Of a stretch of 64,000 bases of DNA, positions 17,127-51,760 are shown in pieces. Location: positions 94,713 through 158,712 of IMG/VR virus record IMGVR_UViG_3300047493_000037. One strand, 5' to 3'. The stretch is from a virus. Taxonomy: Duplodnaviria; Heunggongvirae; Uroviricota; Caudoviricetes. Within the stretch, counting starts at the first letter, position 1, and the number at the start of each line of letters is the position of its first letter. Both the position numbers and the translations under genes were made by a program. A model generated the notes under the pieces. The model did not search any database. It was not told the origin of the DNA and was given only the letters and a program-made list of their open reading frames with translations.

Positions 17127-17132
17127 AAATTT

Positions 17133-17300: not shown

Positions 17301-17305
17301 AAATT

Positions 17306-17999: not shown

Positions 18000-18054
18000 A
18001 ATTCTTTTTTTATTAGACTTATAATAATTTGCACCCGCACCTCTTGTGCAAATT

Positions 18055-18131: not shown

Positions 18132-18140
18132 ATGTAACTT

Positions 18141-31366: not shown

Positions 31367-32568
31367 TTACTTAGAGTCACCATGAGAAAGCTTCTCATTG
31401 ATGCGCATCAGGCTTTCAAGACCAACGGCTTCGAACGGATCAGCAGTTTTGCCGCCCGCACTTCCGCCAGTGACCATCATGGTTGGCAGGGTAATGCTAG
31501 CGAGCTCGTGAGCGACGCCAATAGCAGTTTCCTTGGCAATGGTGGCCTTCTCAAGAGGAGTCAAGCCTGCAGCAACCTTGAGGCGATTGACGTCGGCCAG
31601 GGCTTTACCAGCCGTGACTTCCGCAATGGCATCCTGCTCAGCTTGCTTGCGCTTGAGCTGGGAGACCTCGAACTCCTTCTCAGCGATCGTCACTTCTTTG
31701 ATCTTCTGCACGTCTTGCTCAGCCTTCTCGATTGCGATCTTGGCATTGCCTTGCTCGCGAGCAGTGATGGCATCTTGCTTCGCTTTTTCAGCGTTAGCAC
31801 GAGCCACAACCTTCATCTGCTCAGCTTCCTTCTTCTTCTGAATGAGTGCTTCGATGGTAGGATCGAAGTCCAATTCCTTGATGGTGAAGGAGACAACTTC
31901 AATGCCGTACTGGGTCAAAGGAGAAGTCTTGCGAATGATAGGTTGACCCTTGTCATCGCGCTTCACAAACACTTCGTGATCAATGAGCTCATTGCCGTCA
32001 GCATCCTTGGACTTGATCTCACGAGCGGTGACATCGTAGATGCCGTTCTTGATCTGGTCTTCCACGAGTGACGTGAACTCTGAGCGTCGAGTCGAATAAG
32101 ACTCTTCAGCTTTCATGAGAGTGGCAGTTTGCATCATCGCTTCTGCGACAGTTTGGCGGATAAGGTCGTGTTTCAAGGCTTCGTAGGATTTGAAGTCTTG
32201 GTGAACCTTGAGCCGTTTGACTCCATCAACAGGGAGTCGATACTTGATAGCGCCGCTGATATCAGCAGTACCACCGTCGTTGAACCTAACGTGAATCGGA
32301 TCAGACTCAGCACCATCGCCACCGTCGAGCTTCGACTTGGAGAAGTAATGCATGTCAGAGATCTGATACGTAGTGACGTCTGCGAACAGACGAGCGTACG
32401 AACCAGGTTGGTCAATGACAGTCATGTTACCGGTCACTGCGGCTTGCTTGATCTGATAGAAGCCGGCGTTATTAGTGCCGACCAAGCTTCGGCCAACGCC
32501 GACGAGCAAGAAGAGACCTACCACACCTGCAACGAGGAGGGATAGGAGTTTCACTTTACGAAAATCCA
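31367..32568 (-). CDS. SPFH/band-7 (flotillin/YqiK)-like membrane protein
   Basis: N-terminal TM after ATG 32566-32568 (AAAGGAAA SD), globular domain then ~120-aa Ala/Glu/Lys coiled coil typical of flotillin-like proteins. Confidence 0.5.
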
Positions 32569-32701
32569 TATTGTTTCCTTTCGGGGAACTGGGATTAAGA
32601 CGTTGACTGACTGCTGCCATTTTTACACACCTCTAATACTAAAATGCCCACCACAGAATATATCTGTGATAGGCATCATTAGTTTCGGAATTTTATTTAG
32701 A

Positions 32702-33040
32702 TTACAGAGTCTCTTCCCAGTCAGGGCCATGCTTCTTGCGAAGCTTCAAGGCCTTGATGACGCGAGTGCGTGGATGTCTGCCGAGCTTGCGATTATAGAA
32801 GTTCTTCTTGTTATTTGCATCGTTGATGTCGACAATGTTACCGATGAAGCCAACAAGTGCCTCTTCTCGAGCAGGACTAGCAGGATTGCCGATCTCGTCA
32901 TAAGCTCCTGCCCAACCAACAGCGCAGTATTTCTGCTTGCCGTCCTTGCCAATATATGCGGCTTGACCACAAACCCACTCACTTGGCTTAGTGTTCTCGA
33001 AGAAGTTAATAAAATAGTTTAGAGTATATCCCTTGTGCAT
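32702..33040 (-). CDS. hypothetical protein
   Basis: 112-aa ORF. Confidence 0.5.
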   Translation of the reverse strand: MHKGYTLNYFINFFENTKPSEWVCGQAAYIGKDGKQKYCAVGWAGAYDEIGNPASPAREEALVGFIGNIVDINDANNKKNFYNRKLGRHPRTRVIKALKLRKKHGPDWEETL

Positions 33041-33263
33041 CTGGTTTTCCTTAATTTGTTTGTGTTCGAATTGAACTTGACGAGAGGATTATACGAAATG
33101 AATATTTTTAGGGTTTGGAATAGGTTGGCAACTGTTTCTCTTTATATTGAGTCATGATGCCAACCCCTATCTAACCCGTATCATAAGTAGAAACTCGCTA
33201 TCAAGATAGCTTTGGCAAGTCTCTATCCATGTTTATAAGTATATGCAGCCGCAAACATGGAAA

Positions 33264-33503
33264 CTATCCGGCTACATTGGTCAAGCTCATAAAGGATTTC
33301 TCCGTGAGCTTGATAAGTTTCTTGTATTTTCTTTTTGCTTGCTTTACAGCGTACTTGTAATCCCTGTAGTTGCCAACAGGTTCATTGTTGTGAATATTAA
33401 TCACATCATAGCTGAGATGAAACACAGAGCCAAGATCACCATCGTAGGTGTATGTTTCTTTCTGTCTTACTTCAAATAATGTTTTCCAAGCAACATCAGT
33501 CAT
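33264..33503 (-). CDS. hypothetical protein
   Basis: 79-aa ORF. Confidence 0.45.
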   Translation of the reverse strand: MTDVAWKTLFEVRQKETYTYDGDLGSVFHLSYDVINIHNNEPVGNYRDYKYAVKQAKRKYKKLIKLTEKSFMSLTNVAG

Positions 33504-33621
33504 ATTTGGTCCCGCTGATCGATTCGGACGATCTCGCTACGGATAGCTTCCATGTGGTACGAGCACCTTTCAGGCCTTAGTCGACGTATCTCCATACTCG
33601 TCTCGCACCGCGGGTAATAAA

Positions 33622-33698
33622 TTTGGTCCACCACCCAGGAATCGAACCTGGGTCAAAGGCTTATAAGACCCCTTGGAGCAACCAGCCCCGACCATGGT
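33622..33698 (-). tRNA. isolated tRNA, tentative anticodon UAU (Ile, AUA-reading)
   Basis: Acceptor CCACCAU/GUGGUGG, T-arm CCAGG-UUCGAUU-CCUGG, CCA encoded, loop CUUAUAA; TGTATAAT -10 immediately upstream (33708-33713 complement). Confidence 0.45.
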
Positions 33699-33700
33699 GG

Positions 33701-34045
33701 TTATTCCTTATTATACATCGACAAGGAAATGGGGATGAAATCTCCGTCGATATATGTGCACTTGTCTTTTACAGTGCAAATTTCTTTAGTTTCAGTGACA
33801 TAAGCGTAACCAGGCACCTTGGAGATTACGTCTCTCTTGGCAAACTCTATTGCTAGGTTCTCATCAGGCGCAAGAACAACGGCCCAACCGTGCTTCTTGG
33901 TGTTCTTGTTATGCCAGTGAAATCTTACCTTGAAGACCTTCATTAGATGAAAGTGACCACAAGGCAGTACGCAGCGAAGATGCCAGTGAGATACAGATAC
34001 CAGCGAGGATATATGTGAGGGTTCTTGTATGCTTGAAAACACCAA
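33701..34045 (-). CDS. hypothetical protein
   Basis: 114-aa ORF; real start may be internal (MKVFKV at 33941-33943). Confidence 0.4.
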   Translation of the reverse strand: MVFSSIQEPSHISSLVSVSHWHLRCVLPCGHFHLMKVFKVRFHWHNKNTKKHGWAVVLAPDENLAIEFAKRDVISKVPGYAYVTETKEICTVKDKCTYIDGDFIPISLSMYNKE

Positions 34046-34099
34046 TAACTGTTAACGCCAGCGAGTGCTAAGTCCATAAGCGAAAGAGCCAAATGCATA

Positions 34100-34555
34100 C
34101 TATTCTCCTGCTAGTTCTTGACGCACTTGCATCAGTGCCTTGCCAAGTAGGTTTTGCCCAGTTCCAACTCCACCCTTTTCGCCAGTGCCCCAGACTTTGT
34201 CATAAGGCGAATCTTCGTAGATGAGAGCATCTCCAGTGGATAGAAGGATCTCTTTAAGCTTGGGATTGTTGCCAAACTTGGCCGTGAGAGCATCAAGCAT
34301 GACATCATACTTAACATCGTCCCAGTCAGTGCGAAGCGTGATCACTCTGCCCATCCGCTTGGCATCAAGCGGAGTTGCTGCCTTGCGAATTCCTTCTTGC
34401 TCCTCTTCGTTTAGCGTCTTCTGAGCAGCAAAGTAGTGCTCTGTAGTCGGCCAAGACTTCCCGTCGATCTCAAAAGGACCAGCATAAAAGTTTGAGAAGC
34501 AACCGTATTGCTCCTTGTCATCTTCAGACCAGAAGAAAATCTTTTGTCTTGCCAT
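34100..34555 (-). CDS. NADAR (YbiA/DUF1768) domain protein
   Basis: Near-collinear with E. coli YbiA: FSNFY..PF..DGK.WPT.EHYF.AQK, AKRMGR, KF..NP.L...LL.TG...L.E....D..WG.G..G.G.N.LGK.LM.VR. Confidence 0.85.
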   Translation of the reverse strand: MARQKIFFWSEDDKEQYGCFSNFYAGPFEIDGKSWPTTEHYFAAQKTLNEEEQEGIRKAATPLDAKRMGRVITLRTDWDDVKYDVMLDALTAKFGNNPKLKEILLSTGDALIYEDSPYDKVWGTGEKGGVGTGQNLLGKALMQVRQELAGE

Positions 34556-35553
34556 TACATTCCCATCCCCATGCCCAAGGAACGCTTCTCTTCGAAGTTC
34601 TTCTTGTACTTCTTAGAGTGCTCAACAAGCTCAAGAACAACTTCTTTGTAAGACTTGTCGTGCAGAAGGCTGCGAACGGCGACTTCCTCAAGGTGTGCAA
34701 TGCTGAAGTCTTCAGTACCCTTCATGCCGATGCAGTCCTTCTCTTCTTGCGTGAGTTCACGCTTAGAGATGAAGTGAAGCAACTCGATCTTTTCTGCATG
34801 GGTTGGCGGAGCCAAAGCAAGCATCAGATCGAAGCGACCTGGACGATCAGCAAGAGATTCAAGAAGATTCTCGGGATGATTGGTTGTTGCGACGATGAAC
34901 GTAGGCAAACGGAAGGTGACGCCAACACCGTCAAGCAAATTGAGCAAACCAGAGTCAACAGCTGAGCGACCATGATCTCCGTCACGCTCTCCGCCTCCGA
35001 TATCTTCGATGATGAGGACAAGGCGAGTGCATTCCTTTGTGTACTCGCTCCGCGAGCTCAAGAAGCGACAGACAGAATCTGCTTCGACGTCCGAAGTTGG
35101 CCAGATAATAACTACGGTGCCCGCATCTTCAGCTACCGCGTCCCCGCAGAACTTCTCGATCGCAGACGTCTTACCCATTCCTGGGCGAGAGTAAAGCAGA
35201 ACACCGCGCTTCTTAGGACGACCAAGCTGCTCGTACACGTGAAGCTTGTTGAAGAAGGTACGAGCTTCCTTGATGATTTGCTTAGTGTTATCAACAGTCT
35301 CAAGCAGGCCGCGCTTCTTGAGCTCAACCTTGGTAGTGACCAAGCCTGAAGAGGTCTCAGTGAAGGTGTAGATGCCTGGCTTGATCTCGTACTTCTTATC
35401 TTCCTCGGAGCGCTCGTACTTCATCTGAACGATAGTTTCTTCGTTCTGGAAGCAGAGATCACTCTCTGGGAGCTCCAAGATCTGGTTCTCGACAAGATCT
35501 TTGAACTTAGTGATCTTCTTAATTCTAAACTTGCCTTCAGCAGTTTCTGCCAT
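34555..35553 (-). CDS. AAA+ ATPase (classic AAA clade)
   Basis: Walker A SRPGMGKTS, Walker B LVLIIEDIG, second region of homology FDLMLALAPP; 332 aa. Confidence 0.8.
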   Translation of the reverse strand: MAETAEGKFRIKKITKFKDLVENQILELPESDLCFQNEETIVQMKYERSEEDKKYEIKPGIYTFTETSSGLVTTKVELKKRGLLETVDNTKQIIKEARTFFNKLHVYEQLGRPKKRGVLLYSRPGMGKTSAIEKFCGDAVAEDAGTVVIIWPTSDVEADSVCRFLSSRSEYTKECTRLVLIIEDIGGGERDGDHGRSAVDSGLLNLLDGVGVTFRLPTFIVATTNHPENLLESLADRPGRFDLMLALAPPTHAEKIELLHFISKRELTQEEKDCIGMKGTEDFSIAHLEEVAVRSLLHDKSYKEVVLELVEHSKKYKKNFEEKRSLGMGMGM

Positions 35554-35554
35554 G

Positions 35555-35839
35555 TTATTCCCTTCCTCTTACGAGGACCTTGAGTTTGCTCATCTTGTCG
35601 GTCTTAGAATCGTTCACTAAACTTATCTTCTTAACAATGCTCACCGCTTGATGGCGTTTACCGTCAAAGGAAGAGATCGCTACATTGTCAGCATCAAACA
35701 TGGTAAAGCTATAGTATCTTTTAGAGACCTTTGTAGTAGCTTTAACGTTGTGTACCTCCAACCCCTCACATGGGTCAGATGGAGCCCAAAACCTATCGAA
35801 TGTTGGCCTTCTGCGCCTTTTTCTTCTCTTACCCGCCAC
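35555..35839 (-). CDS. hypothetical protein with Arg-rich N-terminus
   Basis: 94 aa, KRRKRRRRP N-terminus. Confidence 0.45.
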   Translation of the reverse strand: MAGKRRKRRRRPTFDRFWAPSDPCEGLEVHNVKATTKVSKRYYSFTMFDADNVAISSFDGKRHQAVSIVKKISLVNDSKTDKMSKLKVLVRGRE

Positions 35840-36083
35840 TTACAAAACCTCTGCAAATGTCTACAAAAAACTTATCAGAGACTCGGTGTTCCATCTTAGA
35901 GAGACCAATCACCTGAAACGGTATGTTTTTAACACCGACACAGCTAACAGCTGCCTCGCAAGAGAACTCCTCAGAGTAAGAAGATACGTAGAAGTTGCGA
36001 TTATTAATGCGTCGCCTCTTCATAACTTCATGCTCGTCGGTGGAGACTTTTCTAAAAGAAGGACGACCTGGGGTTCTCATCAC
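35829..36083 (-). CDS. hypothetical protein
   Basis: 84 aa; weak similarity to 35555..35839. Confidence 0.4.
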   Translation of the reverse strand: MMRTPGRPSFRKVSTDEHEVMKRRRINNRNFYVSSYSEEFSCEAAVSCVGVKNIPFQVIGLSKMEHRVSDKFFVDICRGFVSGG

Positions 36084-36292
36084 TCTCCAATATACTTAAA
36101 ACGTGGCAACCCACCATCTTCAGAGTCCTCCATGACTCTTGACGTGAAGTCCTTCAATAGACGCGTGTAATAAGTTCCATGCATCTCGTTCATGTAAACG
36201 ACCGTAGGTTGATTCGTTTCAGAATTAACCGCCGTGAATAGAACTCTATAGATGCCACCTTTATAGTGCTTGTATTTTCCTGGTTTTACCAT
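36080..36292 (-). CDS. DUF1653-family protein
   Basis: GKYKHYKGGIYRVLFTAVNSETNQPTVVY matches the DUF1653 signature (KHYKGG.Y...A.HSET.E..VVY). Confidence 0.65.
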   Translation of the reverse strand: MVKPGKYKHYKGGIYRVLFTAVNSETNQPTVVYMNEMHGTYYTRLLKDFTSRVMEDSEDGGLPRFKYIGE

Positions 36293-36400
36293 GGACTCCT
36301 AGTTTTCTTAGAAGAAACTTAACATTTCTTTCTGCTTGAAGTCCATGGACCCAGATATCCAACTCACTTGGCTCTGATTTGAACAAGTTTATTAACCAAT

Positions 36401-37867
36401 TCATCTCAAATTGCTGAGTAAGCGCTTACGAATATCGCCAAGACTGTCATCGCGAAGCAGCTTACCGTTTAGATAAACAGGCTGCAACAACCCACCCTTT
36501 TCTTCGGCAGGAGTAACTTGCTGACTCAGAGTGAGATCCTCGTTGACTCGCAGCAAACCCTTTGCAGACTTCTTGACGCCAGAGTCTGTTTTAGGAGCCT
36601 TGAACATGTCGACTGGAGTACCGTTGATAACACCGTACGTTGCTTTAAGAGCCATGCCAAACGTGTCACGGGTGTTATACTGATACGTATACGAGCCGAT
36701 GCCCAAAACAACGTTGGTAGAAGCAAAGCCTTTAGCCTTGAGACCAGCAATGATTTGTTCAGCGCGTTCCAGGGTGATAGAGTCTCCATAGATCAAGCCA
36801 ACGTGCGGATCAAGGCGTTTGTATCCAGTAGACGTAGTCGTTCCACCGAAGATGTCCCAGAGCGTCTCGATGCTACCCTTATACTGAGGTGAACCAGCAG
36901 GTGCGTCAGGATCGCCGCAGATGATCTTTACAGGATCACCGGAGTCAGGACGGAAGACCAGCTTACCTGGGCGAGCCATAATAACTGGCTTCAACTCGGT
37001 TGCCTTATTAGTGATAGTGTCCCAGTAGTCCCACGTGTCAGAGACAACAGAGAGCACTGCAGAGAGCGGATAAACGTCCTTGAGAAGGCGTAGGAAGGTT
37101 TCCACTTCAGTTTCTTGACCACCCATGCACATGACGGAGTGCTCTGTGGCAGGCACGGAGCCACCGATGAGTTCCTTCTCACAGTCGGCATTGTAATAAT
37201 CTTCAAGATAGTCGATCGAAGGGATCGTATCAGTGCCAGTGAAGCTCAAGAGGTGAGCAGCACCAGAGCGAGCCGCGCTCTCAGGCCCATCCATGCCGCG
37301 GAAGGAGAAGTCGTGACCTTGCCACTGGACGAATCCTTCAACCAGCTCAGGATCAGTTTCTTTGGCTGCTGCCGTGAGAACCTTACGATACTCAAACGCG
37401 ATCGTAGCGTTAGTGGATTGCTTCCAAGTGTAAGAAGACAAGACAGTCTCAAGGAAGTTAGGAACCCAGAAGAAGTCTGGGAGAGTGTTGGTGATCGTGA
37501 ACACAGGAACGCCGATCGGAACCAAAGTGCCCTCTGGAAGCGCTTTCACTTCGATGGGAAGGTAACCAAGGTCGTGAAGAGCCGCGATGTGATCGTAGGT
37601 GACCGCACCTGGTCCGAGATAGTTGTCGATGCGGCGCTTGTAGCGGAGAAGAACCTTATCCCTTGGTTGGCTGAAGAAGCTGTCTTGCCAAACTTGATGA
37701 AGCTCTTTCAAGCCGCCTTGCAAACCAAACAACACAGTTGATGTATAGCGTGAATCGCGAGCGCTGCGAAAGGTTGCATTAGTGTAAACCTTCTGCGAAC
37801 CCTTTGGGTATTGACTGCGATGATCGACCTTGTATCCATCTTTCAAATTAACTGCATTCAACTTCAT
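36401..37867 (-). CDS. nicotinamide phosphoribosyltransferase (NAMPT/NadV) family protein
   Basis: 488 aa; N-terminal DGYKVDHRSQYP (cf. TDSYKVTHYKQY) and overall NAMPT-like length and organisation; ATGA overlap with upstream PRS-family gene. Confidence 0.8.
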   Translation of the reverse strand: MKLNAVNLKDGYKVDHRSQYPKGSQKVYTNATFRSARDSRYTSTVLFGLQGGLKELHQVWQDSFFSQPRDKVLLRYKRRIDNYLGPGAVTYDHIAALHDLGYLPIEVKALPEGTLVPIGVPVFTITNTLPDFFWVPNFLETVLSSYTWKQSTNATIAFEYRKVLTAAAKETDPELVEGFVQWQGHDFSFRGMDGPESAARSGAAHLLSFTGTDTIPSIDYLEDYYNADCEKELIGGSVPATEHSVMCMGGQETEVETFLRLLKDVYPLSAVLSVVSDTWDYWDTITNKATELKPVIMARPGKLVFRPDSGDPVKIICGDPDAPAGSPQYKGSIETLWDIFGGTTTSTGYKRLDPHVGLIYGDSITLERAEQIIAGLKAKGFASTNVVLGIGSYTYQYNTRDTFGMALKATYGVINGTPVDMFKAPKTDSGVKKSAKGLLRVNEDLTLSQQVTPAEEKGGLLQPVYLNGKLLRDDSLGDIRKRLLSNLR

Positions 37868-38655
37868 ACCTTGTATCCATCCTTATTTCTAGTTAAACTA
37901 TTAGTAGTATACACAGTGTCAATTCCGTTAGCCAATAGAAGCTCTTGACCTTTACTGAACAGTCCGTGGGTCACACAGAGATCAACCTTAATATTGTGGT
38001 CTTGGCTTCTCAAGAGCTTTGCCACGCTTAGGAACGTAGCTCCTCCGTCACATAAGTCATCAACGATGAGAAACCTTTTACCAGGTTTTCCTTCATCCTT
38101 AAAGACAACCTTGTGCCCAGTGATCTCACCGGTGAGTTGGTTTCGAGTCTTATCGCAGACGATGTGAGAGTATTGATTGAGGTCTTCGTTGTAGCGATCT
38201 TGCGCTCCAACATCCGGGAAGACGATGTAATCAGGCTCAGAAGCCTTGATAACATATTCCTGGAACTCAGTAGGATAGATATTGACAAAGTTCTTGATAA
38301 GACTTCCAGCCTTAAGAGGGTTATGAACGTCGTTGGAAGAAACCTTATAGAAGTTCATCGAGTTAATAAGGTCCGCTATGACTTCAAAATTAAACGTTGA
38401 GGAGTTAGAGACCTCCTTGTCTTGACGAGCGTAAGGCATGTACGGGACATGCAAGCTCACCGCAGCAAGCGGTCCAAGGAGTTTCCTTAGCGAGAGTAGG
38501 TCAAGCACTTCACGCTCGCTCTCAAACCGCCAGTCAATGTCGACACTGCTACTTAGTAGGATGTCCTCTGGAAGCTTCCACACCTGAGAAGTACCATCGG
38601 GAAAGATGGTAGGCTTAAGGACGTAAGAACTATTTGCGGTTGCAACTGTGATCAT
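37864..38655 (-). CDS. ribose-phosphate pyrophosphokinase (PRS) family protein
   Basis: PYMPYARQDK (cf. Prs PYFGYARQDR) and type-I PRT motif FLIVDDLCDGGATF; 263 aa. Confidence 0.75.
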   Translation of the reverse strand: MITVATANSSYVLKPTIFPDGTSQVWKLPEDILLSSSVDIDWRFESEREVLDLLSLRKLLGPLAAVSLHVPYMPYARQDKEVSNSSTFNFEVIADLINSMNFYKVSSNDVHNPLKAGSLIKNFVNIYPTEFQEYVIKASEPDYIVFPDVGAQDRYNEDLNQYSHIVCDKTRNQLTGEITGHKVVFKDEGKPGKRFLIVDDLCDGGATFLSVAKLLRSQDHNIKVDLCVTHGLFSKGQELLLANGIDTVYTTNSLTRNKDGYKV

Positions 38656-38815
38656 CTTTTTCCTCTTCTACTTGAACGCGGTTTAAATCTTTGTTGCACG
38701 TAGGGTCATCGTTTCGGAATGAGCCATCATCGCGGTAGCAATGAGAGCCCAAGCGAAGATTGACAGTGGTGCAACTAGCTAGTGACAGGAGTAACAGGAT
38801 CGGCAGGAGTTTCAT
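38630..38815 (-). CDS. small putative lipoprotein
   Basis: MKLLPILLLLSLASC signal + lipobox-like Cys; 61 aa. Confidence 0.4.
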   Translation of the reverse strand: MKLLPILLLLSLASCTTVNLRLGSHCYRDDGSFRNDDPTCNKDLNRVQVEEEKDDHSCNRK

Positions 38816-39248
38816 CTTTGACTTCCTCTAATACAGAGACACGATACGTAATCTTATGTGGTACGGTTTCGACGATTTCTAAGTGGGCAACTCTACCCGT
38901 CCAGGCAACAGTAGGATCTTGCGGGTCGTCAACGATCTTTTCTATGCTGTTAGGATCAAGGTTGAAAAGAAACGCCTTGTAAGCTTCAACAGAGGTAGTG
39001 ACGTATGGTTCGCTAACAGTGATAGGTTTTGGTATATTGTATAGCAAAAAAACCTTGTCAACAAACTGATCTACTGAGCCATAAAATTTAGTGTGGACTT
39101 CTCTACCATCATCAAAGATGACTAATGCTGTAGTGATGCCTACCTCAAACTCTTTATCTATGTACACGATATTAGCTGCAGTGGTAGCTTTCATTACCAC
39201 TCTCTCTTGAGTAGACTTGTTAGACCAGAATCCACTAAAGAAGCTCAT
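38775..39248 (-). CDS. hypothetical protein
   Basis: 157-aa ORF. Confidence 0.55.
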   Translation of the reverse strand: MSFFSGFWSNKSTQERVVMKATTAANIVYIDKEFEVGITTALVIFDDGREVHTKFYGSVDQFVDKVFLLYNIPKPITVSEPYVTTSVEAYKAFLFNLDPNSIEKIVDDPQDPTVAWTGRVAHLEIVETVPHKITYRVSVLEEVKDETPADPVTPVTS

Positions 39249-39703
39249 TTAATGTAGACCCTCACTTCAACCGGACCAGATTCTTCTTCAATAATCTGAG
39301 CAATGATATCCCAGTTACCACCAGCGAGTCCAGCTCCTATTTTAGGCATAGCAAAGCCGTTGGGCCAAGATTTAACTAAGTTTTTAATAACAGCCCTAAT
39401 AGCTGGATAAGAAACATAAGGGCCTTCGTCGGGCTTTCCATATCTCTGTTGGGTAGCGCAATTTGCAATGATGATCCCAGAGCCGTCTCCCACACCAACC
39501 AACTGTGTTTCCCCGAGTTTCCAACCTCGCGTGTTATACCTATGTAGATAAGCTTCCCGTGCCGCGGGAAAATTTCCCGCCACGCTCTTAGCAAATCCGG
39601 ATCCAAATCCGCCGCTACAATTACATCCGTGGGCAATAAGCTTTTCATCTGTTAAGAAGATGTCTCCCTGCTTATAAACGATCACAAATCTAAGTCTTCC
39701 CAC
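39245..39703 (-). CDS. macro domain (ADP-ribose binding/processing) protein
   Basis: GDIFLTDEKLIAHGCNCSGGFGSGFAKSVAG and IGAGLAGGNWDII match macro-domain Gly-rich motifs; 152 aa. Confidence 0.65.
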   Translation of the reverse strand: MGRLRFVIVYKQGDIFLTDEKLIAHGCNCSGGFGSGFAKSVAGNFPAAREAYLHRYNTRGWKLGETQLVGVGDGSGIIIANCATQQRYGKPDEGPYVSYPAIRAVIKNLVKSWPNGFAMPKIGAGLAGGNWDIIAQIIEEESGPVEVRVYIK

Positions 39704-40032
39704 TCAATACCAATGTGGGCTTTTTGCACAGAGTTAATATATAAGCCATGAGACTTGCGATAACGTGTGCGCACCTTATTAATAAACTGATTTAAGCCCT
39801 TCTCAGTGAAGAAGTCATAATCTAAGTCGCGCTCACCAAAGCCGCTGCCAGAACTAGTTTCTTCGCCTGAATTTCGCTTAGCGAGCTCATCTAGTTTCAT
39901 ATCTAAGCCACTGTCGAAACCGTCATAAGACAAATAGAGCTTGAACGGCGCATGCTTATCGCCATCTCTGTCTACAAAGTATTTCTTCTTAAACTTAAGA
40001 TGATTCTTGGTCTTCTTTGTTTTCTTCTTCAT
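39682..40032 (-). CDS. hypothetical protein
   Basis: 116-aa ORF. Confidence 0.5.
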   Translation of the reverse strand: MKKKTKKTKNHLKFKKKYFVDRDGDKHAPFKLYLSYDGFDSGLDMKLDELAKRNSGEETSSGSGFGERDLDYDFFTEKGLNQFINKVRTRYRKSHGLYINSVQKAHIGIEWEDLDL

Positions 40033-40292
40033 TCTAGCTCCTCACATGTTGCATCAGTGTGATCGCTTGCCCACCAGCGATAATCCTTAAGAAACTCTTT
40101 GTCTGCTTTAGACTTCGGGTAATAAGGCATAGCCCAACCAACAGAGAACCGTCCCTGCCATTGTTGTGCTACATCTGCTACAAGTTTAGCGTGAGCTTCG
40201 CTAAAAGCTTTTACCTTGAAGACTTCATCGTCATCGCGGTTGGTAGCATTGTTCATGTAAACAAAGTATGTCTTAAGTTTTGCCTTCTTCAT
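40029..40292 (-). CDS. hypothetical protein
   Basis: 87-aa ORF. Confidence 0.5.
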   Translation of the reverse strand: MKKAKLKTYFVYMNNATNRDDDEVFKVKAFSEAHAKLVADVAQQWQGRFSVGWAMPYYPKSKADKEFLKDYRWWASDHTDATCEELE

Positions 40293-40590
40293 GATTACCC
40301 CTTAATACACCGATTGAATTTTCATTAACCTTGTGTGGCATACCATCTTTTTCGCGATTTGGTTCGCCAAACCAATACGTATCCTGACCAGCGCCGCTGC
40401 CAAACATCCGCTTAAAGAGCTTATACTCTGGCAATTCGATCAAGCCCTCGTGGCCTTCGACGCCTGCTGCCAATTGTATATAGCGGCAGCAACCAGACGC
40501 ATGATATGTTTTCCGCTTAGAAGTCCAAGTGAGTTCTCTCTCTAAGAACTTAATAGCTTTCTTATAGATGCCAACTCTAAGTTTGTTCAT
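40273..40590 (-). CDS. hypothetical protein
   Basis: 105-aa ORF. Confidence 0.5.
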   Translation of the reverse strand: MNKLRVGIYKKAIKFLERELTWTSKRKTYHASGCCRYIQLAAGVEGHEGLIELPEYKLFKRMFGSGAGQDTYWFGEPNREKDGMPHKVNENSIGVLRGNHEEGKT

Positions 40591-41000
40591 GCTTCACCTA
40601 ACAAAACTTTGAGCCACTTCTCTTTGTCCTTGACCTTGTCGTCCTTGAGGTTCTCAACGGCTTCAAGCTTATTAAGAACAGTTTGCGTGCGAGCGTAGTC
40701 TTCCTTAGACTTAAGCATCACATAGCAGAAGCTTTGGCTTTTGCCTTCATAACCAGTATAAGCGAGACCACTCAAGCCAACATGGGCAGTTTCTCTGTCT
40801 TCGTCAGTGAGATCAAGAATCTTTTCGACAGGGTCCAAGGTGTGCCCATAAGTTCCAACCTTGAACATGTACTCAGCATACTTCACCTTGGAAGCTGCGC
40901 GCTTATCAGTCTCATCAAGAGCTTTGAGCTCGGCGGCGAGGGCGGAATACTTCTTTTGAGTTTCGTTCATCTCAGTGCGGATTTCGACTCTGCGACTCAT
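40587..41000 (-). CDS. hypothetical protein
   Basis: 137-aa ORF. Confidence 0.55.
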   Translation of the reverse strand: MSRRVEIRTEMNETQKKYSALAAELKALDETDKRAASKVKYAEYMFKVGTYGHTLDPVEKILDLTDEDRETAHVGLSGLAYTGYEGKSQSFCYVMLKSKEDYARTQTVLNKLEAVENLKDDKVKDKEKWLKVLLGEA

Positions 41001-41281
41001 TTTTTAACCCTCTCTTTGCGAAGTCTATTCTTTTGGACTTTAAGTTTAGAAACATATAGTCCTCTAGTTTGTCCGAGGTGTTTGATAGCAGCCTCAATAG
41101 TTCCATGTGCCTTCTGATATTTAACTAATGACCTTATCTCTTCAGAGACATATTCAATCTCATTTTTAATGAAGTCTGTAGAGTTGGCTTTTTCAGCAAC
41201 GTCGTGAGCTACTCGAGCATTAAAGGCCAGTTCTTCTTCTGGAGTCATTACTCTACTCATACTTCGTATCTTCCGTTTCAC
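40997..41281 (-). CDS. hypothetical protein
   Basis: 94-aa ORF. Confidence 0.5.
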   Translation of the reverse strand: MKRKIRSMSRVMTPEEELAFNARVAHDVAEKANSTDFIKNEIEYVSEEIRSLVKYQKAHGTIEAAIKHLGQTRGLYVSKLKVQKNRLRKERVKK

Positions 41282-41633
41282 TCACAATGAGCTCAGAGGC
41301 CGCTTCAGGAGTCTCGCCAAGCAAGATGTAGTCAATCTGCCTATCATCGTGCCAGTCCTTAAACTCTTTCTGAATACTCCCTTGGATGTAGGTGAGCTTA
41401 CCCATCTTAGAGGTCATATACAGGTTCACTGTCTTTGGGCACTTGCAAGTCTTGTGGGTGGGAATGCCGCTGCTGTTCACGCACTCTTTGTCTAGGATCG
41501 CTCTAATCTTGCCGAAAGAGGACTCAGAAGCGGACGTGGCTCGAACCCATTCCGGACTCCACCAATATGGGACTCCACGCTTGCTCACGTGGTCAGGTTC
41601 GCGGAGTGGACGATCAATCTTTTGTTTTGCCAC
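41253..41633 (-). CDS. hypothetical Cys-containing protein
   Basis: ORF 41253..41711 trimmed to GTG at 41631-41633 so as not to overlap the lipoprotein gene. Confidence 0.4.
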   Translation of the reverse strand: MAKQKIDRPLREPDHVSKRGVPYWWSPEWVRATSASESSFGKIRAILDKECVNSSGIPTHKTCKCPKTVNLYMTSKMGKLTYIQGSIQKEFKDWHDDRQIDYILLGETPEAASELIVSETEDTKYE

Positions 41634-41847: not shown

Positions 41848-42555
41848 ATGTAAATATATGATCAGAATTATAGGAGTTTACCGAGCAGATGGAATAAGCT
41901 GTAGTAGGTCTGGTGGTTTCCTACGAATATGCCACCGCAACGTTTTATGATGATGTCATCTGCTCTATCAAGAATTGCATTTTTGGTATTAAACAACACG
42001 CGTGTTTATATAATCAGAATAAGCGGCCACGAAGCAGTGTCAAGGTATTAATCTTGTAACCCTAAGTTTGGATAACAATAAGACCACATAGTACGTAGAA
42101 ACTTCTTTATTATAGGTATCTAACTCATCGAACAATAAAGCAAACGATTTTATGACACGATCTGGCTTACGATAGCTCTTCATGAGCACATCTCGCAACC
42201 GATGTCGCAGAAGCCGCACTCTGCACAGCCATAGCCGACCGGCCACTCATACATATAAAGACAAGGATCAACACTGAGACGCCTGAGGAGAAGTATCAGT
42301 CTAGTTTTCGCTTGGTGATCTGTTTGAAAGCGCATCACAGACGATCCGCATTAATGAAGATAACGCGGCCACGCTGTCTCCTACTGATTATAGTGAGATG
42401 CATCATTAGACGGGTAAGATCCGATATTGAGATATAGTGCCGATGCGTAAAACGCATAGAGAATTTGGTTGCAAGGCCAGTAGTCGAAACTGGTACACCT
42501 TCATGCTTATGAGGCATGCGAGCCGCCGTTGCTCGATCCTTGCGATCTAAATTAT

Positions 42556-47394: not shown

Positions 47395-48132
47395 TTAATC
47401 GCCGATACCAAAGCTAGAAAGAATGCCAAGTGTTGGGGTATAAGCGCTTCCGCCGCCATCAGTAGCATAATAGACTTGAACATTAAGTCCAACTACTTCA
47501 CCTTCTTTGTCAAACACTGGCCCACCGCTCATACCAGGTTGAAGAACACCATTGAGACACTTGATGAGGAAGGCATCGTTGGACTTGGGAAATAGGTTTT
47601 CGCAGTGAATAAAATGAGAACCCTGAGGATAGCCGCAGGCGAACACTACAGGCTCAATCTTAAGCTGCGTGGAGACTAGAATTGCGCCAGGAATAACGGA
47701 GAAATTACCATGAATCAAACCCCAATCCATGCGCGTGTTTACGCCGACTAGCTGTCCTTTGATGACAGCGCTACCGTCGTCGTTTACAACTCCCAGCTCT
47801 TGATCCTTCATCTTGCCTTCTTCATCAACTAGGCAATGTGCTGCAGTGAGAACATAGTTATTACCAATGACAACCCCAGTACAGACGAAGTCTCCACGGG
47901 CGTACAACCTAACAATTGATCTAGTTGGATCTACTTTAGAGCTTGGTGCTAGCTTTGGAAGGTTTTTGAACACTTGATGGCTTGAAACGGCGGCGGGAGG
48001 GAGAAGCATGCTAGTGAGAAACACTAGTCCAATTGCCATGTATGCTAAAGTGAAGACCAGCATTACTCCTTTTATGCAAGAACCTGTAAACTTAGCGAGA
48101 CCCTTAGCGAAGGAGATGAGTTGTGATAGCAT
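47395..48132 (-). CDS. trypsin-like (S1) serine protease with N-terminal signal anchor
   Basis: His motif LTAAHC, Ser motif GMSGGPV, N-terminal TM; 245 aa. Confidence 0.8.
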   Translation of the reverse strand: MLSQLISFAKGLAKFTGSCIKGVMLVFTLAYMAIGLVFLTSMLLPPAAVSSHQVFKNLPKLAPSSKVDPTRSIVRLYARGDFVCTGVVIGNNYVLTAAHCLVDEEGKMKDQELGVVNDDGSAVIKGQLVGVNTRMDWGLIHGNFSVIPGAILVSTQLKIEPVVFACGYPQGSHFIHCENLFPKSNDAFLIKCLNGVLQPGMSGGPVFDKEGEVVGLNVQVYYATDGGGSAYTPTLGILSSFGIGD

Positions 48133-48186
48133 GATGGCCTTTCAAATTAGATTGCTAATCTAATTTTACCTCGCAACGAGTAAGTA

Positions 48187-48996
48187 TCACCTGCTGAGCG
48201 CTTCTCTCACAAGCTTTCCAGTAGCAACTGCAGTAGCTTGTGAAGTGCCAGTCATGCGTCCAAACTTTCCGCCAGGCAGAGTTGAGAGAACTTCCGTACC
48301 AATTTCCCAGCGCTTAATATAGCTACCATAGTTAGAACTAGGCGCACGCTTAACTTCATCGATGTTGTCTTGTAAGTTACCAACAACCACAATCCTGTCG
48401 TCGTAGCAAGCAGGGAAGTAGTCGCATTTACTCGGAGCTGGTTCATCTGGGATTACACTTAATGGTCCAGGAAGCGCGTGATAGTTTGGTGCCTTGCTTG
48501 CACCGTCTAACGCATTCTTGTCACCAAGATCCGTGTGCTCATTGCCTGCGGCAACTACCACCTTAATACCTTTATTCAAGGCATCAACAATGAGACTATA
48601 CTCGTCTGAAGACCAACCAGGTCCACCACCAGAAATGTTGATGAAGTCAACCTTGATGTTAATAGCGTACTGAATCGCCTCAAGCAATGCACGCTTGTTC
48701 TGATAGCCAGTGTGGTACTCAGAGAAGTACTTGATGGCGACCAGACAATAATCACCAAAGCCAGCATTAGAACTCACTAACCCAGCAATGTGAGTGCCAT
48801 GCCCATTAGTGTCTTCGGTTGGACTCAAGAGAGTGCGGCCGCGATAGGCGAAAGACTTATGACCCATCTTGCAAAGATTGGGCAATGTCTTATCGACACC
48901 GGTATCAATGATAGCGATGGTGATAGTTTTGCTGTATGCCAACGCGGGCATCACGAACATCGAGGCTAAAACAGCGAGTTTAAGTGCTTTCACCAT
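48187..48996 (-). CDS. subtilisin-like (S8) serine protease, secreted
   Basis: Asp IAIIDTGVD, His NGHGTHIAGL, Ser GTSQATAVATG; signal peptide MVKALKLAVLASMFVMPALA; start ATG 48994-48996 with GGAGGA SD. Confidence 0.85.
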   Translation of the reverse strand: MVKALKLAVLASMFVMPALAYSKTITIAIIDTGVDKTLPNLCKMGHKSFAYRGRTLLSPTEDTNGHGTHIAGLVSSNAGFGDYCLVAIKYFSEYHTGYQNKRALLEAIQYAINIKVDFINISGGGPGWSSDEYSLIVDALNKGIKVVVAAGNEHTDLGDKNALDGASKAPNYHALPGPLSVIPDEPAPSKCDYFPACYDDRIVVVGNLQDNIDEVKRAPSSNYGSYIKRWEIGTEVLSTLPGGKFGRMTGTSQATAVATGKLVREALSR

Positions 48997-49189
48997 GAGA
49001 TCCTCCAATGATCTTTAAGATCATTGAGTATATCTCGTTTCGGTATTCATCGCCAGGTTCAACAGAGGCACAGACGCTCTTGATATCACCGTCAGTGTAG
49101 CCTTTAGCGCGCATAGATTCAAACAGCTCGTAAGCTTCATTGTGAATTCTATTCTTACTTCTGATCCTGTCGTCTTCGTACATTCCCAT
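48980..49189 (-). CDS. hypothetical protein
   Basis: 69-aa ORF. Confidence 0.4.
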   Translation of the reverse strand: MGMYEDDRIRSKNRIHNEAYELFESMRAKGYTDGDIKSVCASVEPGDEYRNEIYSMILKIIGGSHGEST

Positions 49190-51691: not shown

Positions 51692-51721
51692 TTTTATCCC
51701 TCTGTTAATGCGTTCAACTGG

Positions 51722-51760
51722 TAAAATAATTATACTTACCGCATGATAAATAATCATACA
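51722..51760 (-). promoter_or_regulatory. putative thyX promoter in divergent thyX/nrdJ intergenic region
   Basis: Minus-strand aaGTATAATtattt about 30 nt upstream of thyX ATG. Confidence 0.3.

What the first reader, a model, noticed from the sequence alone, without database searches (positions are those of the whole stretch)
34100..39703. NAD+/ADP-ribose module: overlapping PRS-family + NAMPT-family gene pair flanked by macro domain, NADAR, DUF1653 and an AAA+ ATPase
A 263-aa PRS homolog (PYMPYARQDK, FLIVDDLCDGGATF) overlaps by ATGA a 488-aa NAMPT homolog in one operon. Within 3 kb lie a macro domain, a NADAR (YbiA) protein, DUF1653 and an AAA+ ATPase. Such PRS+NAMPT pairs have been read as NadV-type NAD+ salvage. 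A recently described alternative is that a PRS-like kinase pyrophosphorylates ADP-ribose and a NAMPT-like enzyme condenses it with nicotinamide, rebuilding NAD+ after NAD-depleting defence. The co-clustered ADP-ribose-handling proteins (macro and NADAR, which can remove ADP-ribose from proteins or DNA) fit an ADP-ribose/NAD-centred counter-defence island. The extra members suggest a larger system than the two-gene pathway.
Basis: partly seen in the sequence, partly recalled or inferred. Interest (0 to 1): 0.75.

Follow-up and report, generated by a model that had tools for sequence, protein, structure and literature searches.

The report
Phage NAD+ rebuilding operon (NARP1) with helpers
An uncultivated large phage carries the already-described two-enzyme pathway that rebuilds NAD+ from ADP-ribose and nicotinamide after a bacterial defence destroys it, next to a macro-domain helper that is also already described; the other neighbours are mostly bystanders, so this is a new example of a known system rather than a new one.

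Summary
All genes lie on the minus strand in this order: Macro, ORFan, PRS-like (263 aa), NAMPT-like (488 aa, ATGA overlap), DUF1653, two small ORFs, AAA+, NADAR.

The pair is NARP1 (Adps + Namat), not housekeeping Prs/NadV. The NAMPT-like protein carries the published Namat signature GSYTYQYNTRD and all NAD+-contact residues. It scores 528 bits against the SPbetaL1 Namat structure and about 210-220 bits against canonical Nampt. The PRS-like protein fails every NCBIfam Prs cut-off. It scores like validated Adps on a profile built from 106 Namat-linked homologues.

The Macro protein belongs to the NARP1-associated Macro family (Adpp, "NARP1-AP", 2026 preprint).

The "larger system" idea is only partly supported. 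Close relatives replace NARP1 with a NARP2 pair in the same slot, or delete it, yet keep Macro and AAA+. AAA+ is a backbone gene of the phage group. DUF1653 shows no consistent link.

NADAR recurs near NARP1 in 11 of 124 lineages. It is gene-adjacent in 3 of them. I found no paper that reports this. It is a modest lead that NADAR may be another enzyme feeding ADP-ribose into NARP1.

Verdict: a new member of a known kind, of low to moderate interest.

The parts
37864..38655 (-). Adps: PRS-like ADP-ribose pyrophosphokinase (ADPR + ATP -> ADPR-PP + AMP), 263 aa
   Evidence: It fails all NCBIfam Prs cut-offs; the best is TIGR01251 at 81.5 bits against a cut-off of 113. PHROG 619 gives 215 bits. 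A profile of 106 Namat-linked homologues gives it 238.6 bits, against 271 for SPbetaL1 Adps, 242 for ICP1 Adps and 139 for E. coli Prs. The equivalents of ICP1 K185, R87, H121, D161 and D212/D213 are kept, and the PP loop reads CDGGAT. It lacks the Prs N-terminal insert and the C-terminal helices.
36401..37867 (-). Namat: NAMPT-like nicotinamide ADP-ribose transferase (ADPR-PP + nicotinamide -> NAD+), 488 aa; its start overlaps the Adps stop (ATGA)
   Evidence: PDB 9w5x/9w5w score 528 bits; their sequence matches the SPbetaL1 Namat ORF of L001, which also scores 528.5 bits. Human NAMPT scores 210 bits and Xanthomonas Nampt 191 bits. The NARP2-type Nampt of L094 scores 218 bits. The SCH motif GSYTYQYNTRD matches the published Namat consensus. 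The equivalents of R40, D13, Y15, F189, R192, D215, H245, R306, D308, T398, R399 and D400 are kept.
39245..39703 (-). Macro-domain protein of the NARP1-associated Macro (Adpp) family; predicted ADPR-1''-phosphate phosphatase, 152 aa
   Evidence: It is 30% identical to the assayed Vibrio phage Gary Adpp (E 1e-10). All 11 invariant columns of the alignment with Table S1 macros are kept. PDB ranking is BT1257 62 bits, SCO6735 45, Poa1p 39, DarG 29. It lies two genes upstream of Adps here. In relative L002 it lies 358 nt from the Adps ORF with no homologue of the ORFan between them.
38775..39248 (-). Lineage-specific ORFan between Macro and Adps; function unknown
   Evidence: No Pfam, NCBIfam or PHROG hit. 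Only 2 homologues among 5.8 billion proteins. No homologue was detected in relative L002. The AlphaFold2 model is unusable, with pLDDT 52.
36080..36292 (-). DUF1653 protein, 70 aa; neighbour of unknown function, with no consistent link to NARP1
   Evidence: PF07866 at 1.4e-14. It is kept next to the NARP2 pair in L094 and lost in L096. Outside the window's family it lies 3-5.7 kb from NARP1, in L110, L148 and L180 only.
34555..35553 (-). AAA+ ATPase, 332 aa; backbone gene of this phage group and not part of the NAD module
   Evidence: PF00004 at 2.4e-8. It is kept in relatives with NARP2 (L094) and with no NARP (L096). It occurs at 50% identity in L092 and L093, which lack Macro, NARP1 and NADAR and place it among ligase and ClpP-like backbone genes. 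Isolate phages give only 9 distant hits.
34100..34555 (-). NADAR protein of the YbiA subfamily, 151 aa; predicted N-glycosidase that releases ADP-ribose from N-linked adducts. Probably a separate counter-defence gene, possibly a feeder of ADPR to NARP1
   Evidence: PF08719 at 1.7e-42 and TIGR02464 at 141 bits. E. coli YbiA (2b3w) scores 122 bits and NADAR 8bau 66 bits. The YbiA-type Glu is present in ...IYEDSPYDKVWG. It is absent from relative L094 and kept in L096. NADAR recurs near NARP1 in 11 of 124 lineages.
35555..36083 (-). Two small ORFs (35829-36083 and 35555-35839) of unknown function between DUF1653 and AAA+
   Evidence: No hits for 35555-35839 in any family library; 35829-36083 was not scanned. 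Homologues of the 94-aa ORF travel with AAA+ in relatives, and a 106-aa ORF sits in the same position before AAA+ in L093.

Best explanation
The PRS-like and NAMPT-like genes are Adps and Namat, the two enzymes of NAD+ reconstitution pathway 1 (NARP1). They sit in an uncultivated, tRNA-rich phage that is probably about 177 kb long.

Mechanism, inferred from characterised homologues. A host NADase defence (TIR, SIR2, DSR or similar) cleaves NAD+ into ADP-ribose and nicotinamide. Adps transfers the beta,gamma-pyrophosphate of ATP to the 1'' hydroxyl of ADP-ribose, giving ADPR-PP. Namat condenses ADPR-PP with nicotinamide to give NAD+ directly, with no need for an NMN adenylyltransferase.

The Macro protein upstream belongs to the NARP1-associated Macro family (Adpp). 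It most likely dephosphorylates ADPR-1''-phosphate, the product of RES-type NADases, to ADP-ribose. That would extend the pathway to NARP1-AP.

The NADAR protein is a YbiA-type N-glycosidase. It is most likely an independent counter-measure against ADP-ribosylation of guanine in DNA, and its product is again free ADP-ribose. AAA+ is a backbone gene of the phage group. DUF1653 and the small ORFs are unexplained neighbours.

Shown here: family and clade membership, signature residues, gene order, and how that order varies in relatives. Inferred: all enzymatic activities and the anti-defence phenotype.
For: Namat:
- 528 bits to PDB 9w5x/9w5w, whose sequence matches the SPbetaL1 Namat ORF (528.5 bits), against 210 for human NAMPT and 218 for a NARP2-type Nampt.
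- Exact Namat SCH motif, and the SCL arginine is kept.

Adps:
- Below all NCBIfam Prs cut-offs.
- Scores like validated Adps on a profile of Namat-linked proteins, while E. coli Prs scores about 100 bits lower.
- Catalytic Lys and acceptor residues kept, and the Prs regulatory C-terminus is missing.

Pairing:
- ATGA overlap.
- An Adps homologue accompanies Namat in 114 of 124 lineages.
- Both domains hit a single stop-to-stop frame in L060, and PHROG 12872 matches both window proteins, so fused forms probably exist.
- No NMNAT or Nudix gene was found in the window: phmmer with two NMNAT-Nudix queries against all ORFs of 40 aa or more, plus Pfam scans of 44 window ORFs.

Macro. In my sample Macro occurs in 21 of 124 NARP1 lineages, and in 15 of them within 750 nt. 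The preprint reports 15%.

NADAR.

AAA+ as backbone.
Against: - No activity was measured.
- Two Adps adenine-contact residues of ICP1, F92 and F223, are V and S here.
- Namat enzymes also use PRPP in vitro.
- Only 64 kb of the genome is visible, so an NMNAT gene elsewhere cannot be excluded.
- Macro is retained intact in relatives that carry NARP2 instead of NARP1, or no NARP at all. The same macro family sits away from any NARP1 in jumbo coliphages. Its role may therefore not depend on NARP1.
- E. coli YbiA hydrolyses guanine-ADPr in vitro but does not protect against DarT1 in vivo. The physiological substrate of YbiA-type NADARs is open.
Confidence: 0.78

Rival explanations
1. Classical NadV-type salvage. 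The PRS-like enzyme makes PRPP, the NAMPT-like enzyme makes NMN from PRPP and nicotinamide, and an NMN adenylyltransferase encoded elsewhere in the phage, or the host NadD/NadR, finishes NAD+.
For: Namat retains PRPP-dependent NMN synthesis in vitro. The closest database relative by score is an Acinetobacter chromosomal operon annotated prsA_2, putative nicotinate phosphoribosyltransferase, and bifunctional NMNAT/ADP-ribose pyrophosphatase, so an NMNAT sits next to a homologous pair. Only 64 kb of a genome of about 177 kb was inspected.
Against: The Namat-specific adenine clamp motif is intact. The PRS-like protein falls below all Prs cut-offs and has lost the Prs regulatory regions. No NMNAT or Nudix gene was found in the window. 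A close relative that does use the NMN route (L094) carries a clearly different, canonical Nampt (GMGGALLQQVNRD; NAMPT_N 91 bits against 30 here) together with an NMNAT-Nudix gene.
Confidence: 0.06
2. One integrated multi-gene system. Macro, Adps, Namat, DUF1653, AAA+ and NADAR act together as a single larger ADP-ribose/NAD counter-defence machine.
For: The gene order is conserved in two relatives with 88% and 71% Namat identity. NADAR recurs close to NARP1, in 8 of 124 lineages within 2.5 kb and in 3 gene-adjacent. A different AAA family is embedded in the NARP1 operons of L041 and L180. DUF1653 lies 3-5.7 kb away in three other lineages.
Against: The two syntenic relatives are simply related genomes. 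In other close relatives the parts vary independently. L094 has NARP2 in place of NARP1, no NADAR, and keeps Macro, DUF1653 and AAA+. L096 has NARP1 and DUF1653 deleted and keeps Macro, AAA+ and NADAR. AAA+ at 50% identity sits in backbone context without any of the others. The window's AAA+ shares only the P-loop core with the L041/L180 family, at 25% identity and E about 1e-3. The nearest outside relatives of the window's NADAR, at 45-50% identity, have no NARP1 within 10 kb.
Confidence: 0.1
3. The Macro protein is not an ADPR-1''-phosphate phosphatase feeding NARP1. It is a stand-alone de-ADP-ribosylase of DNA or protein (DarG/TARG1/SCO6735-like), for example against DarTG2-type toxins, and merely sits beside NARP1 in an anti-defence region.
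For: It is retained intact, at 74-77% identity, in relatives without NARP1. The same family occurs in jumbo coliphages far from any NARP1, next to Nudix and tRNA nucleotidyltransferase genes. There is a weak match to the NCBIfam DarG model, and PDB SCO6735 at 45 bits outranks Poa1p at 39 bits. Phage DarG2-like macros with anti-DarTG2 activity are reported in an abstract listed (PMC13309987).
Against: It aligns end to end with the NARP1-embedded macro family, which includes the biochemically assayed Gary Adpp, and it keeps all invariant positions. In my sample 15 of 21 macro-containing NARP1 lineages have the macro within 750 nt of a NARP1 gene. The DarG model score is 32 bits against a cut-off of 250.
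Confidence: 0.3

Closest known systems
NARP1 (Adps + Namat) of Bacillus phage SPbetaL1, Vibrio phage ICP1 (NrsA/NrsB) and coliphage Bas63 (bioRxiv 10.1101/2024.02.11.579819; PMC12774641; PMC13586617)
   Same: A two-gene operon with a PRS-like gene directly followed by a NAMPT-like gene. The Namat SCH motif GS[YF][TS][YF][QN][YF][NV]TRD, the SCL arginine and the catalytic core are present. The Adps catalytic Lys, the acceptor Asp/His/Arg residues, a CDGG-type PP loop and loss of the Prs regulatory C-terminus are present. Namat is 53% identical to SPbetaL1 and 49% to ICP1. Adps is 29% identical to ICP1 Adps.
   Different: Adps is shorter (263 aa) and replaces two adenine-contact aromatic residues of ICP1 Adps (F92V, F223S). 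The host and phage lineage are unknown, and no isolate phage matches the region by megablast.
NARP1-AP (Adps, Adpp Macro phosphatase, Namat) of Vibrio phage Gary (bioRxiv 10.64898/2026.01.28.702374)
   Same: A small macro protein of the same family lies within two genes of NARP1 on the same strand. The preprint's operational criterion is met. All invariant positions of the family are kept.
   Different: In Gary the Macro gene lies between Adps and Namat. Here it lies upstream of Adps with an ORFan in between. Identity to Gary Adpp is only 28-30%. Close relatives keep this Macro without NARP1, which the preprint's model does not predict.
NARP2 (Nampt + bifunctional NMNAT/Nudix) of Vibrio phage KVP40
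   Same: The same purpose, restoring NAD+. A close relative of this phage (L094) carries a NARP2-like pair in exactly the slot that NARP1 occupies here.
   Different: The window lacks an NMNAT-Nudix gene. Its transferase has the Namat clamp rather than the canonical Nampt motif.
Phage NADAR anti-DarT factors (AdfN of T4, NADARs of Bas32 and Bas60; PMC11257639) and E. coli YbiA (PMC11125620)
   Same: A single-domain NADAR with conserved catalytic residues. All tested NADARs hydrolyse guanine-linked ADP-ribose on DNA.
   Different: The window protein is YbiA-like (122 bits to YbiA, passing the TIGR02464 cut-off). According to that paper, the phage NADARs shown to work in vivo are not YbiA-like, and E. 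coli YbiA did not protect against DarT1 in vivo.
RyDEP, the RyR-domain O-glycosidase next to NARP1 in mycobacteriophage DyoEdafos (bioRxiv 10.64898/2026.05.28.727677)
   Same: The concept of an accessory enzyme beside NARP1 that converts another NAD+-derived molecule into linear ADP-ribose for Adps.
   Different: No RyR-domain protein was detected here (Pfam scans). The analogy with NADAR is an inference only.

Membership tests
NARP1 | PRS-like protein of the Adps clade, not canonical Prs | tested here: met
   Below all NCBIfam Prs cut-offs (81.5 against 113). It scores 238.6 bits on a profile of 106 Namat-linked PRS-like proteins, similar to SPbetaL1 (271) and ICP1 Adps (242), while E. coli Prs scores 139. 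Pairwise phmmer gives 95 and 73 bits to the validated Adps proteins and 36 to E. coli Prs.
NARP1 | Adps catalytic and substrate residues (ICP1 numbering: K185, R87, H121, D161, D212, D213, PP loop 215-220; F18, F92, F221, F223) | tested here: met
   K185, R87, H121, D161, D212, D213, F18 and F221 are kept, and the PP loop CDGGAT compares with ICP1 CDGAAS. F92 is V and F223 is S. SPbetaL1 Adps also lacks both of those residues (residues taken).
NARP1 | NAMPT-like protein with the Namat selectivity clamp: SCH motif GSXphiXphiXphiTRD with aromatic X, plus an SCL stacking residue | tested here: met
   GSYTYQYNTRD is present, and the R40 equivalent is present in ...TFRSARD.... The canonical Nampt of L094 reads GMGGALLQQVNRD.
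NARP1 | Namat catalytic core (F189, R192, D215, H245, R306, D308, R399') | tested here: met
   All are invariant in the alignment with SPbetaL1 and ICP1 Namat.
NARP1 | [quoted passage not shown] | tested here: met
   4-nt ATGA overlap.
NARP1 | ADPR + ATP -> ADPR-PP; ADPR-PP + nicotinamide -> NAD+; rescue from NAD+-depleting defences | not testable with these tools
   This needs enzyme assays and phage infection assays.
NARP1-AP | Macro-domain gene within two genes of the NARP1 genes | tested here: met
   Macro lies two genes upstream of Adps. In L002 it lies 358 nt from the Adps ORF with no homologue of the ORFan between them.
NARP1-AP | Homology of the Macro protein to Adpp/Poa1p-type macros | tested here: met
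   E 1e-10 and 30% identity to Gary Adpp. All 11 invariant columns of the family alignment are kept. Poa1p structures score 36-39 bits.
NARP1-AP | ADPR-1''-phosphate phosphatase activity that is needed, together with NARP1, to overcome aRES | not testable with these tools
   The indirect evidence is mixed. The Macro gene persists in relatives that carry NARP2 or no NARP.
NARP2 / NadV salvage | Canonical Nampt plus an NMN adenylyltransferase | tested here: not met
   The clamp motif is of Namat type. No NMNAT or Nudix gene was found in the 64-kb window. The rest of the genome was not seen.
Canonical ribose-phosphate pyrophosphokinase (Prs) | Score above the curated family cut-offs, plus the regulatory N-terminal insert and C-terminal helices | tested here: not met
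   All 11 NCBIfam Prs models that matched are below their cut-offs. The 17-residue N-terminal insert and about 35 C-terminal residues of E. coli Prs are absent.
Phage anti-DarT NADAR (AdfN-like) | NADAR fold with catalytic residues | tested here: met
   PF08719 at 1.7e-42. The EHYF motif and the Glu of the last strand are conserved.
Phage anti-DarT NADAR (AdfN-like) | Membership of a NADAR clade shown to neutralise DarT1 in vivo | tested here: inconclusive
   The protein is YbiA-like. The literature places AdfN and the Bas32 and Bas60 NADARs outside the YbiA clade, and reports that E. coli YbiA fails to protect in vivo. I made no direct comparison with T4 gp30.3.

The most novel reading that the evidence does not exclude
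NADAR may be a third kind of feeder enzyme for NARP1. The first two are the Adpp phosphatase and the RyDEP O-glycosidase. As an N-glycosidase, NADAR would release linear ADP-ribose from N-linked ADP-ribose adducts made by host defences. Candidate substrates are guanine-ADPr on DNA, histidine-ADPR, or N-glycosidic cyclic ADPR signals. It would disarm the adduct and hand ADP-ribose to Adps and Namat for NAD+ resynthesis.

The support is recurrent recruitment of at least two NADAR subfamilies next to NARP1 genes in unrelated phages:
- L017: Adps-Namat-NADAR, with overlapping ORFs.
- L042: NADAR starts 4 nt after the Adps ORF ends, in the order Adps-NADAR-Namat.
- L058: Macro-Namat-Adps-NADAR.
- The window's family: NADAR 1.8 kb downstream of Namat.

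No paper in the searched library links NADAR with NARP1.
Probability: 0.2. Interest if true: 0.6.

Novelty: new member of a known kind. Interest (0 to 1): 0.3.

Why it matters
The finding adds one more, fairly divergent, environmental example of phage NAD+ reconstitution, and it shows that published sequence rules can classify such pairs. Those rules are the Namat clamp motif, the Adps PP loop and the loss of the Prs regulatory regions.

Two by-products are more useful than the locus itself. First, closely related phages carry NARP1, NARP2 or nothing in the same genomic slot. This natural experiment shows the pathways are interchangeable cassettes, and that the neighbouring Macro, AAA+ and NADAR genes do not strictly depend on NARP1. 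Second, NADAR genes sit beside NARP1 genes in several unrelated phages. That suggests a cheap, testable hypothesis: another class of NAD+-derived defence product may be recycled through NARP1.

Tried and rejected
- Megablast of the 5.6-kb region against isolate phages found nothing.
- Exact-sequence look-ups of the source contig, using Namat and P0001, found nothing on record.
- The promoter and terminator scan of 33000-41500 was no better than shuffled sequence, so operon boundaries could not be set.
- ORFan 38775-39248 has only two homologues worldwide. Its AlphaFold2 model had pLDDT 52, so I ran no fold search.
- Jackhmmer with the AAA+ protein drifted to generic AAA ATPases. The L041 and L180 hits proved to be a different family, at 25% identity in the P-loop only. 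I do not count them as homologues of the window's gene.
- I considered and rejected RtcB- or Tpt1-linked RNA repair as the context for Macro. RtcB sits beside Macro in relative L094, but phmmer with that RtcB found no match among the window's ORFs.
- I considered DarG identity for Macro. It scores 32 bits against a cut-off of 250.
- The PDB copy did not return an Adps structure for the PRS-like protein; only canonical Prs entries appeared. No structural comparison with Adps was therefore possible.
- The best 'phage' hit for Namat, 'Acinetobacter phage MD-2021a', turned out to be bacterial chromosomal sequence. I did not use it as phage evidence.

Full report
**Observation**

In transcription order the genes are:

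| Gene | Coordinates | Key evidence |
|---|---|---|
| Macro | 39245-39703 | PF01661 1.5e-4; PHROG 335 'phosphatase' 1.5e-36 |
| ORFan | 38775-39248 | no family hit |
| PRS-like, 263 aa | 37864-38655 | PHROG 619 2e-63 |
| NAMPT-like, 488 aa | 36401-37867 | PF04095 2e-37 |
| DUF1653 | 36080-36292 | PF07866 1.4e-14 |
| two small ORFs | 35829-36083 and 35555-35839 | 35555-35839: no family hit; 35829-36083: not scanned |
| AAA+ | 34555-35553 | PF00004 2.4e-8 |
| NADAR | 34100-34555 | PF08719 1.7e-42 |

The ATGA overlap between the PRS-like stop and the NAMPT-like start is real. The whole 64-kb window is transcribed in one direction, so co-orientation carries no information. A promoter and terminator scan did no better than shuffled sequence.

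The window belongs to an uncultivated large phage:
- It carries ribonucleotide reductase, thymidylate synthases, DNA ligase, a ClpP-like protease and HNH endonucleases.
- It carries 26 tRNA genes.
- It has no close isolate relative.
- A protein identical to the ORFan over its whole 139-aa length is on record from a 176.8-kb JGI contig. That contig is probably the source of the window.

**The pair is NARP1, not Prs/NadV**

The literature held here describes NAD+ reconstitution pathway 1. Adps is a PRS-like enzyme that makes ADPR-PP from ADP-ribose and ATP. Namat is a NAMPT-like enzyme that joins ADPR-PP to nicotinamide to give NAD+ (bioRxiv 10.1101/2024.02.11.579819).

The structural paper on Namat (PMC12774641) gives a sequence rule. 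Namat has a 'selectivity clamp' made of the motif GS-X-phi-X-phi-X-phi-TRD, with aromatic X, plus a stacking residue in the beta1-beta2 loop. Canonical Nampt lacks both.

- The window protein reads GSYTYQYNTRD and keeps the loop arginine.
Ala362 is Ser, which is a backbone contact. Phe392 is Tyr, which the consensus permits.
- Against solved structures it scores 528 bits to PDB 9w5x/9w5w, 210 bits to human NAMPT and 191 bits to Xanthomonas Nampt. The 9w5x sequence shown in that output matches the SPbetaL1 Namat ORF of L001, which also scores 528.5 bits.
- Against a NARP2-type Nampt from a close relative it scores 218 bits.

The PRS-like protein behaves the same way.
- It falls below the curated cut-off of every NCBIfam Prs model; the best is 81.5 bits against 113.
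- I built a profile from 106 non-redundant PRS-like proteins found next to Namat genes in IMG/VR, leaving out the window's own family. The window protein scores 238.6 bits. The experimentally validated Adps of SPbetaL1 and ICP1 score 271 and 242. E. coli Prs scores 139.
- In alignment with ICP1 Adps (residues from PMC13586617) it keeps the catalytic Lys185, Arg87, His121, Asp161 and Asp212/213, and a CDGG-type PP loop.
- It lacks the N-terminal insert and the C-terminal regulatory helices of Prs.
- Two aromatic adenine contacts, F92 and F223, are not kept, but SPbetaL1 Adps lacks them too.

Phmmer with two NMNAT-Nudix queries against all ORFs of 40 aa or more found no NMNAT or Nudix gene in the window. 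Pfam scans of 44 window ORFs found none either. Across 124 distinct Namat lineages fetched from IMG/VR, an Adps homologue accompanies Namat in 114. In L060 both domains hit a single stop-to-stop reading frame, which suggests a fusion. PHROG 12872, a 547-position profile, matches both window proteins.

**The Macro protein**

A 2026 preprint (10.64898/2026.01.28.702374) reports three things:
- 15% of NARP1 phages carry a Macro gene within two genes of the operon.
- The Vibrio phage Gary protein (Adpp) converts ADPR-1''-phosphate to ADP-ribose. ADPR-1''-phosphate is the product of RES-type NADases.
- Adps, Adpp and Namat together ('NARP1-AP') overcome that defence.

I took sequences from its Table S1. 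The window's Macro is 30% identical to Gary Adpp (E 1e-10). It aligns end to end with twelve members of the family and keeps all eleven invariant positions. Its distance from Gary Adpp is within the family's own spread of 27-60%. By sequence the nearest solved structures are BT1257 and SCO6735, then yeast Poa1p, an ADPR-1''-phosphate phosphatase, then DarG. In my own sample Macro occurs in 21 of 124 NARP1 lineages, and in 15 of them within 750 nt. This part of the 'extra members' is already explained by known work.

**Natural variants argue against one large system**

Searching IMG/VR with the Macro, AAA+ and NADAR proteins and mapping all island genes gave five related contigs.
- Two contigs keep the window's order.
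- One contig (L094) keeps Macro, DUF1653, the small ORF and AAA+. Between Macro and DUF1653 it carries an NMNAT-Nudix protein and a canonical Nampt (GMGGALLQQVNRD), which is a NARP2 pair. It has no Adps and no NADAR.
- One contig (L096) keeps Macro, AAA+ and NADAR but retains only a 50-residue C-terminal remnant of Namat. It has no Adps and no DUF1653.
- One contig (L074) is cut at its start and shows only AAA+, NADAR and downstream genes.

The slot is thus a variable cassette site, and Macro, AAA+ and NADAR each persist without NARP1.

AAA+ also occurs at 50% identity in two more distant phages, where it sits among DNA ligase, ClpP-like and MoxR-like backbone genes with none of the NAD genes nearby. 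It is almost absent from isolate phages. I conclude that AAA+ is a backbone gene of this phage group.

DUF1653 is adjacent to NARP1 only in the window's family. Elsewhere it lies 3-5.7 kb away, in three lineages.

The ORFan between Macro and Adps has two homologues in 5.8 billion proteins and could not be modelled.

**NADAR**

The window's NADAR is YbiA-like:
- It scores 122 bits to E. coli YbiA.
- It passes the TIGR02464 cut-off.
- It has the Glu in the last strand.

The literature shows that all tested NADARs remove ADP-ribose from guanine in DNA. Some phage NADARs neutralise DarTG1 in vivo. E. coli YbiA does not protect in vivo. The default reading is therefore an independent counter-measure against DNA ADP-ribosylation.

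NADAR is nevertheless not randomly placed relative to NARP1. It occurs in the flanks of 11 of 124 lineages, within 2.5 kb in 8, and directly adjacent in 3:
- L017: NADAR overlaps the Namat stop.
- L042: NADAR starts 4 nt after the Adps ORF ends and lies between Adps and Namat.
- L058: the order is Macro-Namat-Adps-NADAR.

The adjacent NADARs form a non-YbiA clade that resembles PDB 8BAU. At least two NADAR subfamilies have therefore been recruited. No paper in the library links NADAR with NARP1.

Two NARP1 accessories are already known to convert other NAD+-derived molecules into linear ADP-ribose. Adpp is a phosphatase. RyDEP is an O-glycosidase acting on 2'/3' cADPR. An N-glycosidase feeder is a reasonable hypothesis. 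The numbers are small, though, and anti-defence genes cluster anyway. The closest outside relatives of the window's own NADAR are not near NARP1. I give this reading about 20%.

**Comparison and verdict**

The locus works like NARP1 and meets every membership feature that sequence can test. With lower confidence in the Macro's substrate, the same holds for NARP1-AP. It is not NARP2 and it is not housekeeping Prs/NadV.

Its main interpretation is right but describes a system published in 2024-2026. Its suggestion of a larger integrated system is supported only for Macro, which is already known, and remains open for NADAR. The evidence goes against AAA+, and DUF1653 shows no consistent link.

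Novelty: a new member of a known kind. Interest: about 0.3. That value rests mainly on the NARP1/NARP2/deletion series in related phages and on the NADAR lead.

Noticed in passing
L094:10716-14146 (IMG/VR contig 3300012943_000035), in the slot corresponding to window 36401-38655: A close relative (Macro 74% and AAA+ 76% identical) carries an NMNAT-Nudix gene and a canonical Nampt, a NARP2-like pair, exactly where the window has Adps-Namat. It also lacks NADAR. An RtcB RNA ligase gene lies just upstream of its Macro gene.
   Followed up: yes
L096:2898-6113 (IMG/VR contig 3300048784_000209): Another close relative has lost Adps, most of Namat and DUF1653. A 50-aa C-terminal remnant of Namat remains at 3386-3538. 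Macro, AAA+ and NADAR are intact.
   Followed up: yes
L017:3457-6352; L042:7928-11512; L058:9231-13119; also L047, L040 and L061: NADAR genes of a non-YbiA clade sit directly beside or inside NARP1 operons in unrelated phages. No paper in the searched library links NADAR with NARP1.
   Followed up: partly
L041:8886-10001 and L180:5789-7072: An AAA ATPase family, with the two members 33% identical to each other, is embedded in two NARP1 operons (Adps-Macro-AAA-Namat and AAA-Adps-Namat). It is unrelated to the window's AAA+ beyond the P-loop core. Its function is unknown.
   Followed up: partly
L060:9047-11464: Adps-like and Namat-like domains both hit one 806-codon stop-to-stop frame, an apparent fusion. 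PHROG 12872 matches both window proteins, which suggests such fusions recur.
   Followed up: no
L107 (CAKLQF020000015.1, labelled 'Acinetobacter phage MD-2021a'): The best 'phage' database hit for Namat is bacterial chromosomal sequence, flanked by ABC transporter and AraC regulator genes. Its operon is annotated prsA_2, putative nicotinate phosphoribosyltransferase, and bifunctional NMNAT/ADP-ribose pyrophosphatase. The transferase carries the Namat-type clamp motif (GSFTYNYLTRD), so the operon may be a bacterial NARP1 with an added NMNAT-Nudix enzyme.
   Followed up: partly
window 9930-18216; 33624-33700; 42466-42544: There are 26 tRNA genes, 24 of them in an array. Two solitary ones, tRNA-Ile(TAT) and tRNA-Met(CAT), bracket the roughly 9-kb stretch that holds the NAD genes.
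   Followed up: no
window 31367-32620: A 417-aa SPFH/Band-7 protein lies downstream of the island. It is conserved in all relatives, and an SPFH homologue also lies between Adps and Namat in L040.
   Followed up: no
window 47395-49008: Adjacent genes for a trypsin-like peptidase (245 aa) and a subtilase (273 aa). Also in the window: peptide deformylase (8122-8619), a DenV-like pyrimidine-dimer glycosylase (15019-15492), a calcineurin-like phosphoesterase (20816-21595), and two thymidylate-synthase-like genes (3340-4194 and 51035-51910).
   Followed up: no
window 38630-38815: A 61-aa ORF with a lipoprotein-like signal sequence (MKLLPILLLLSLASC) spans the gap between the ORFan and Adps and overlaps both. 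It is unclear whether it is expressed.
   Followed up: no
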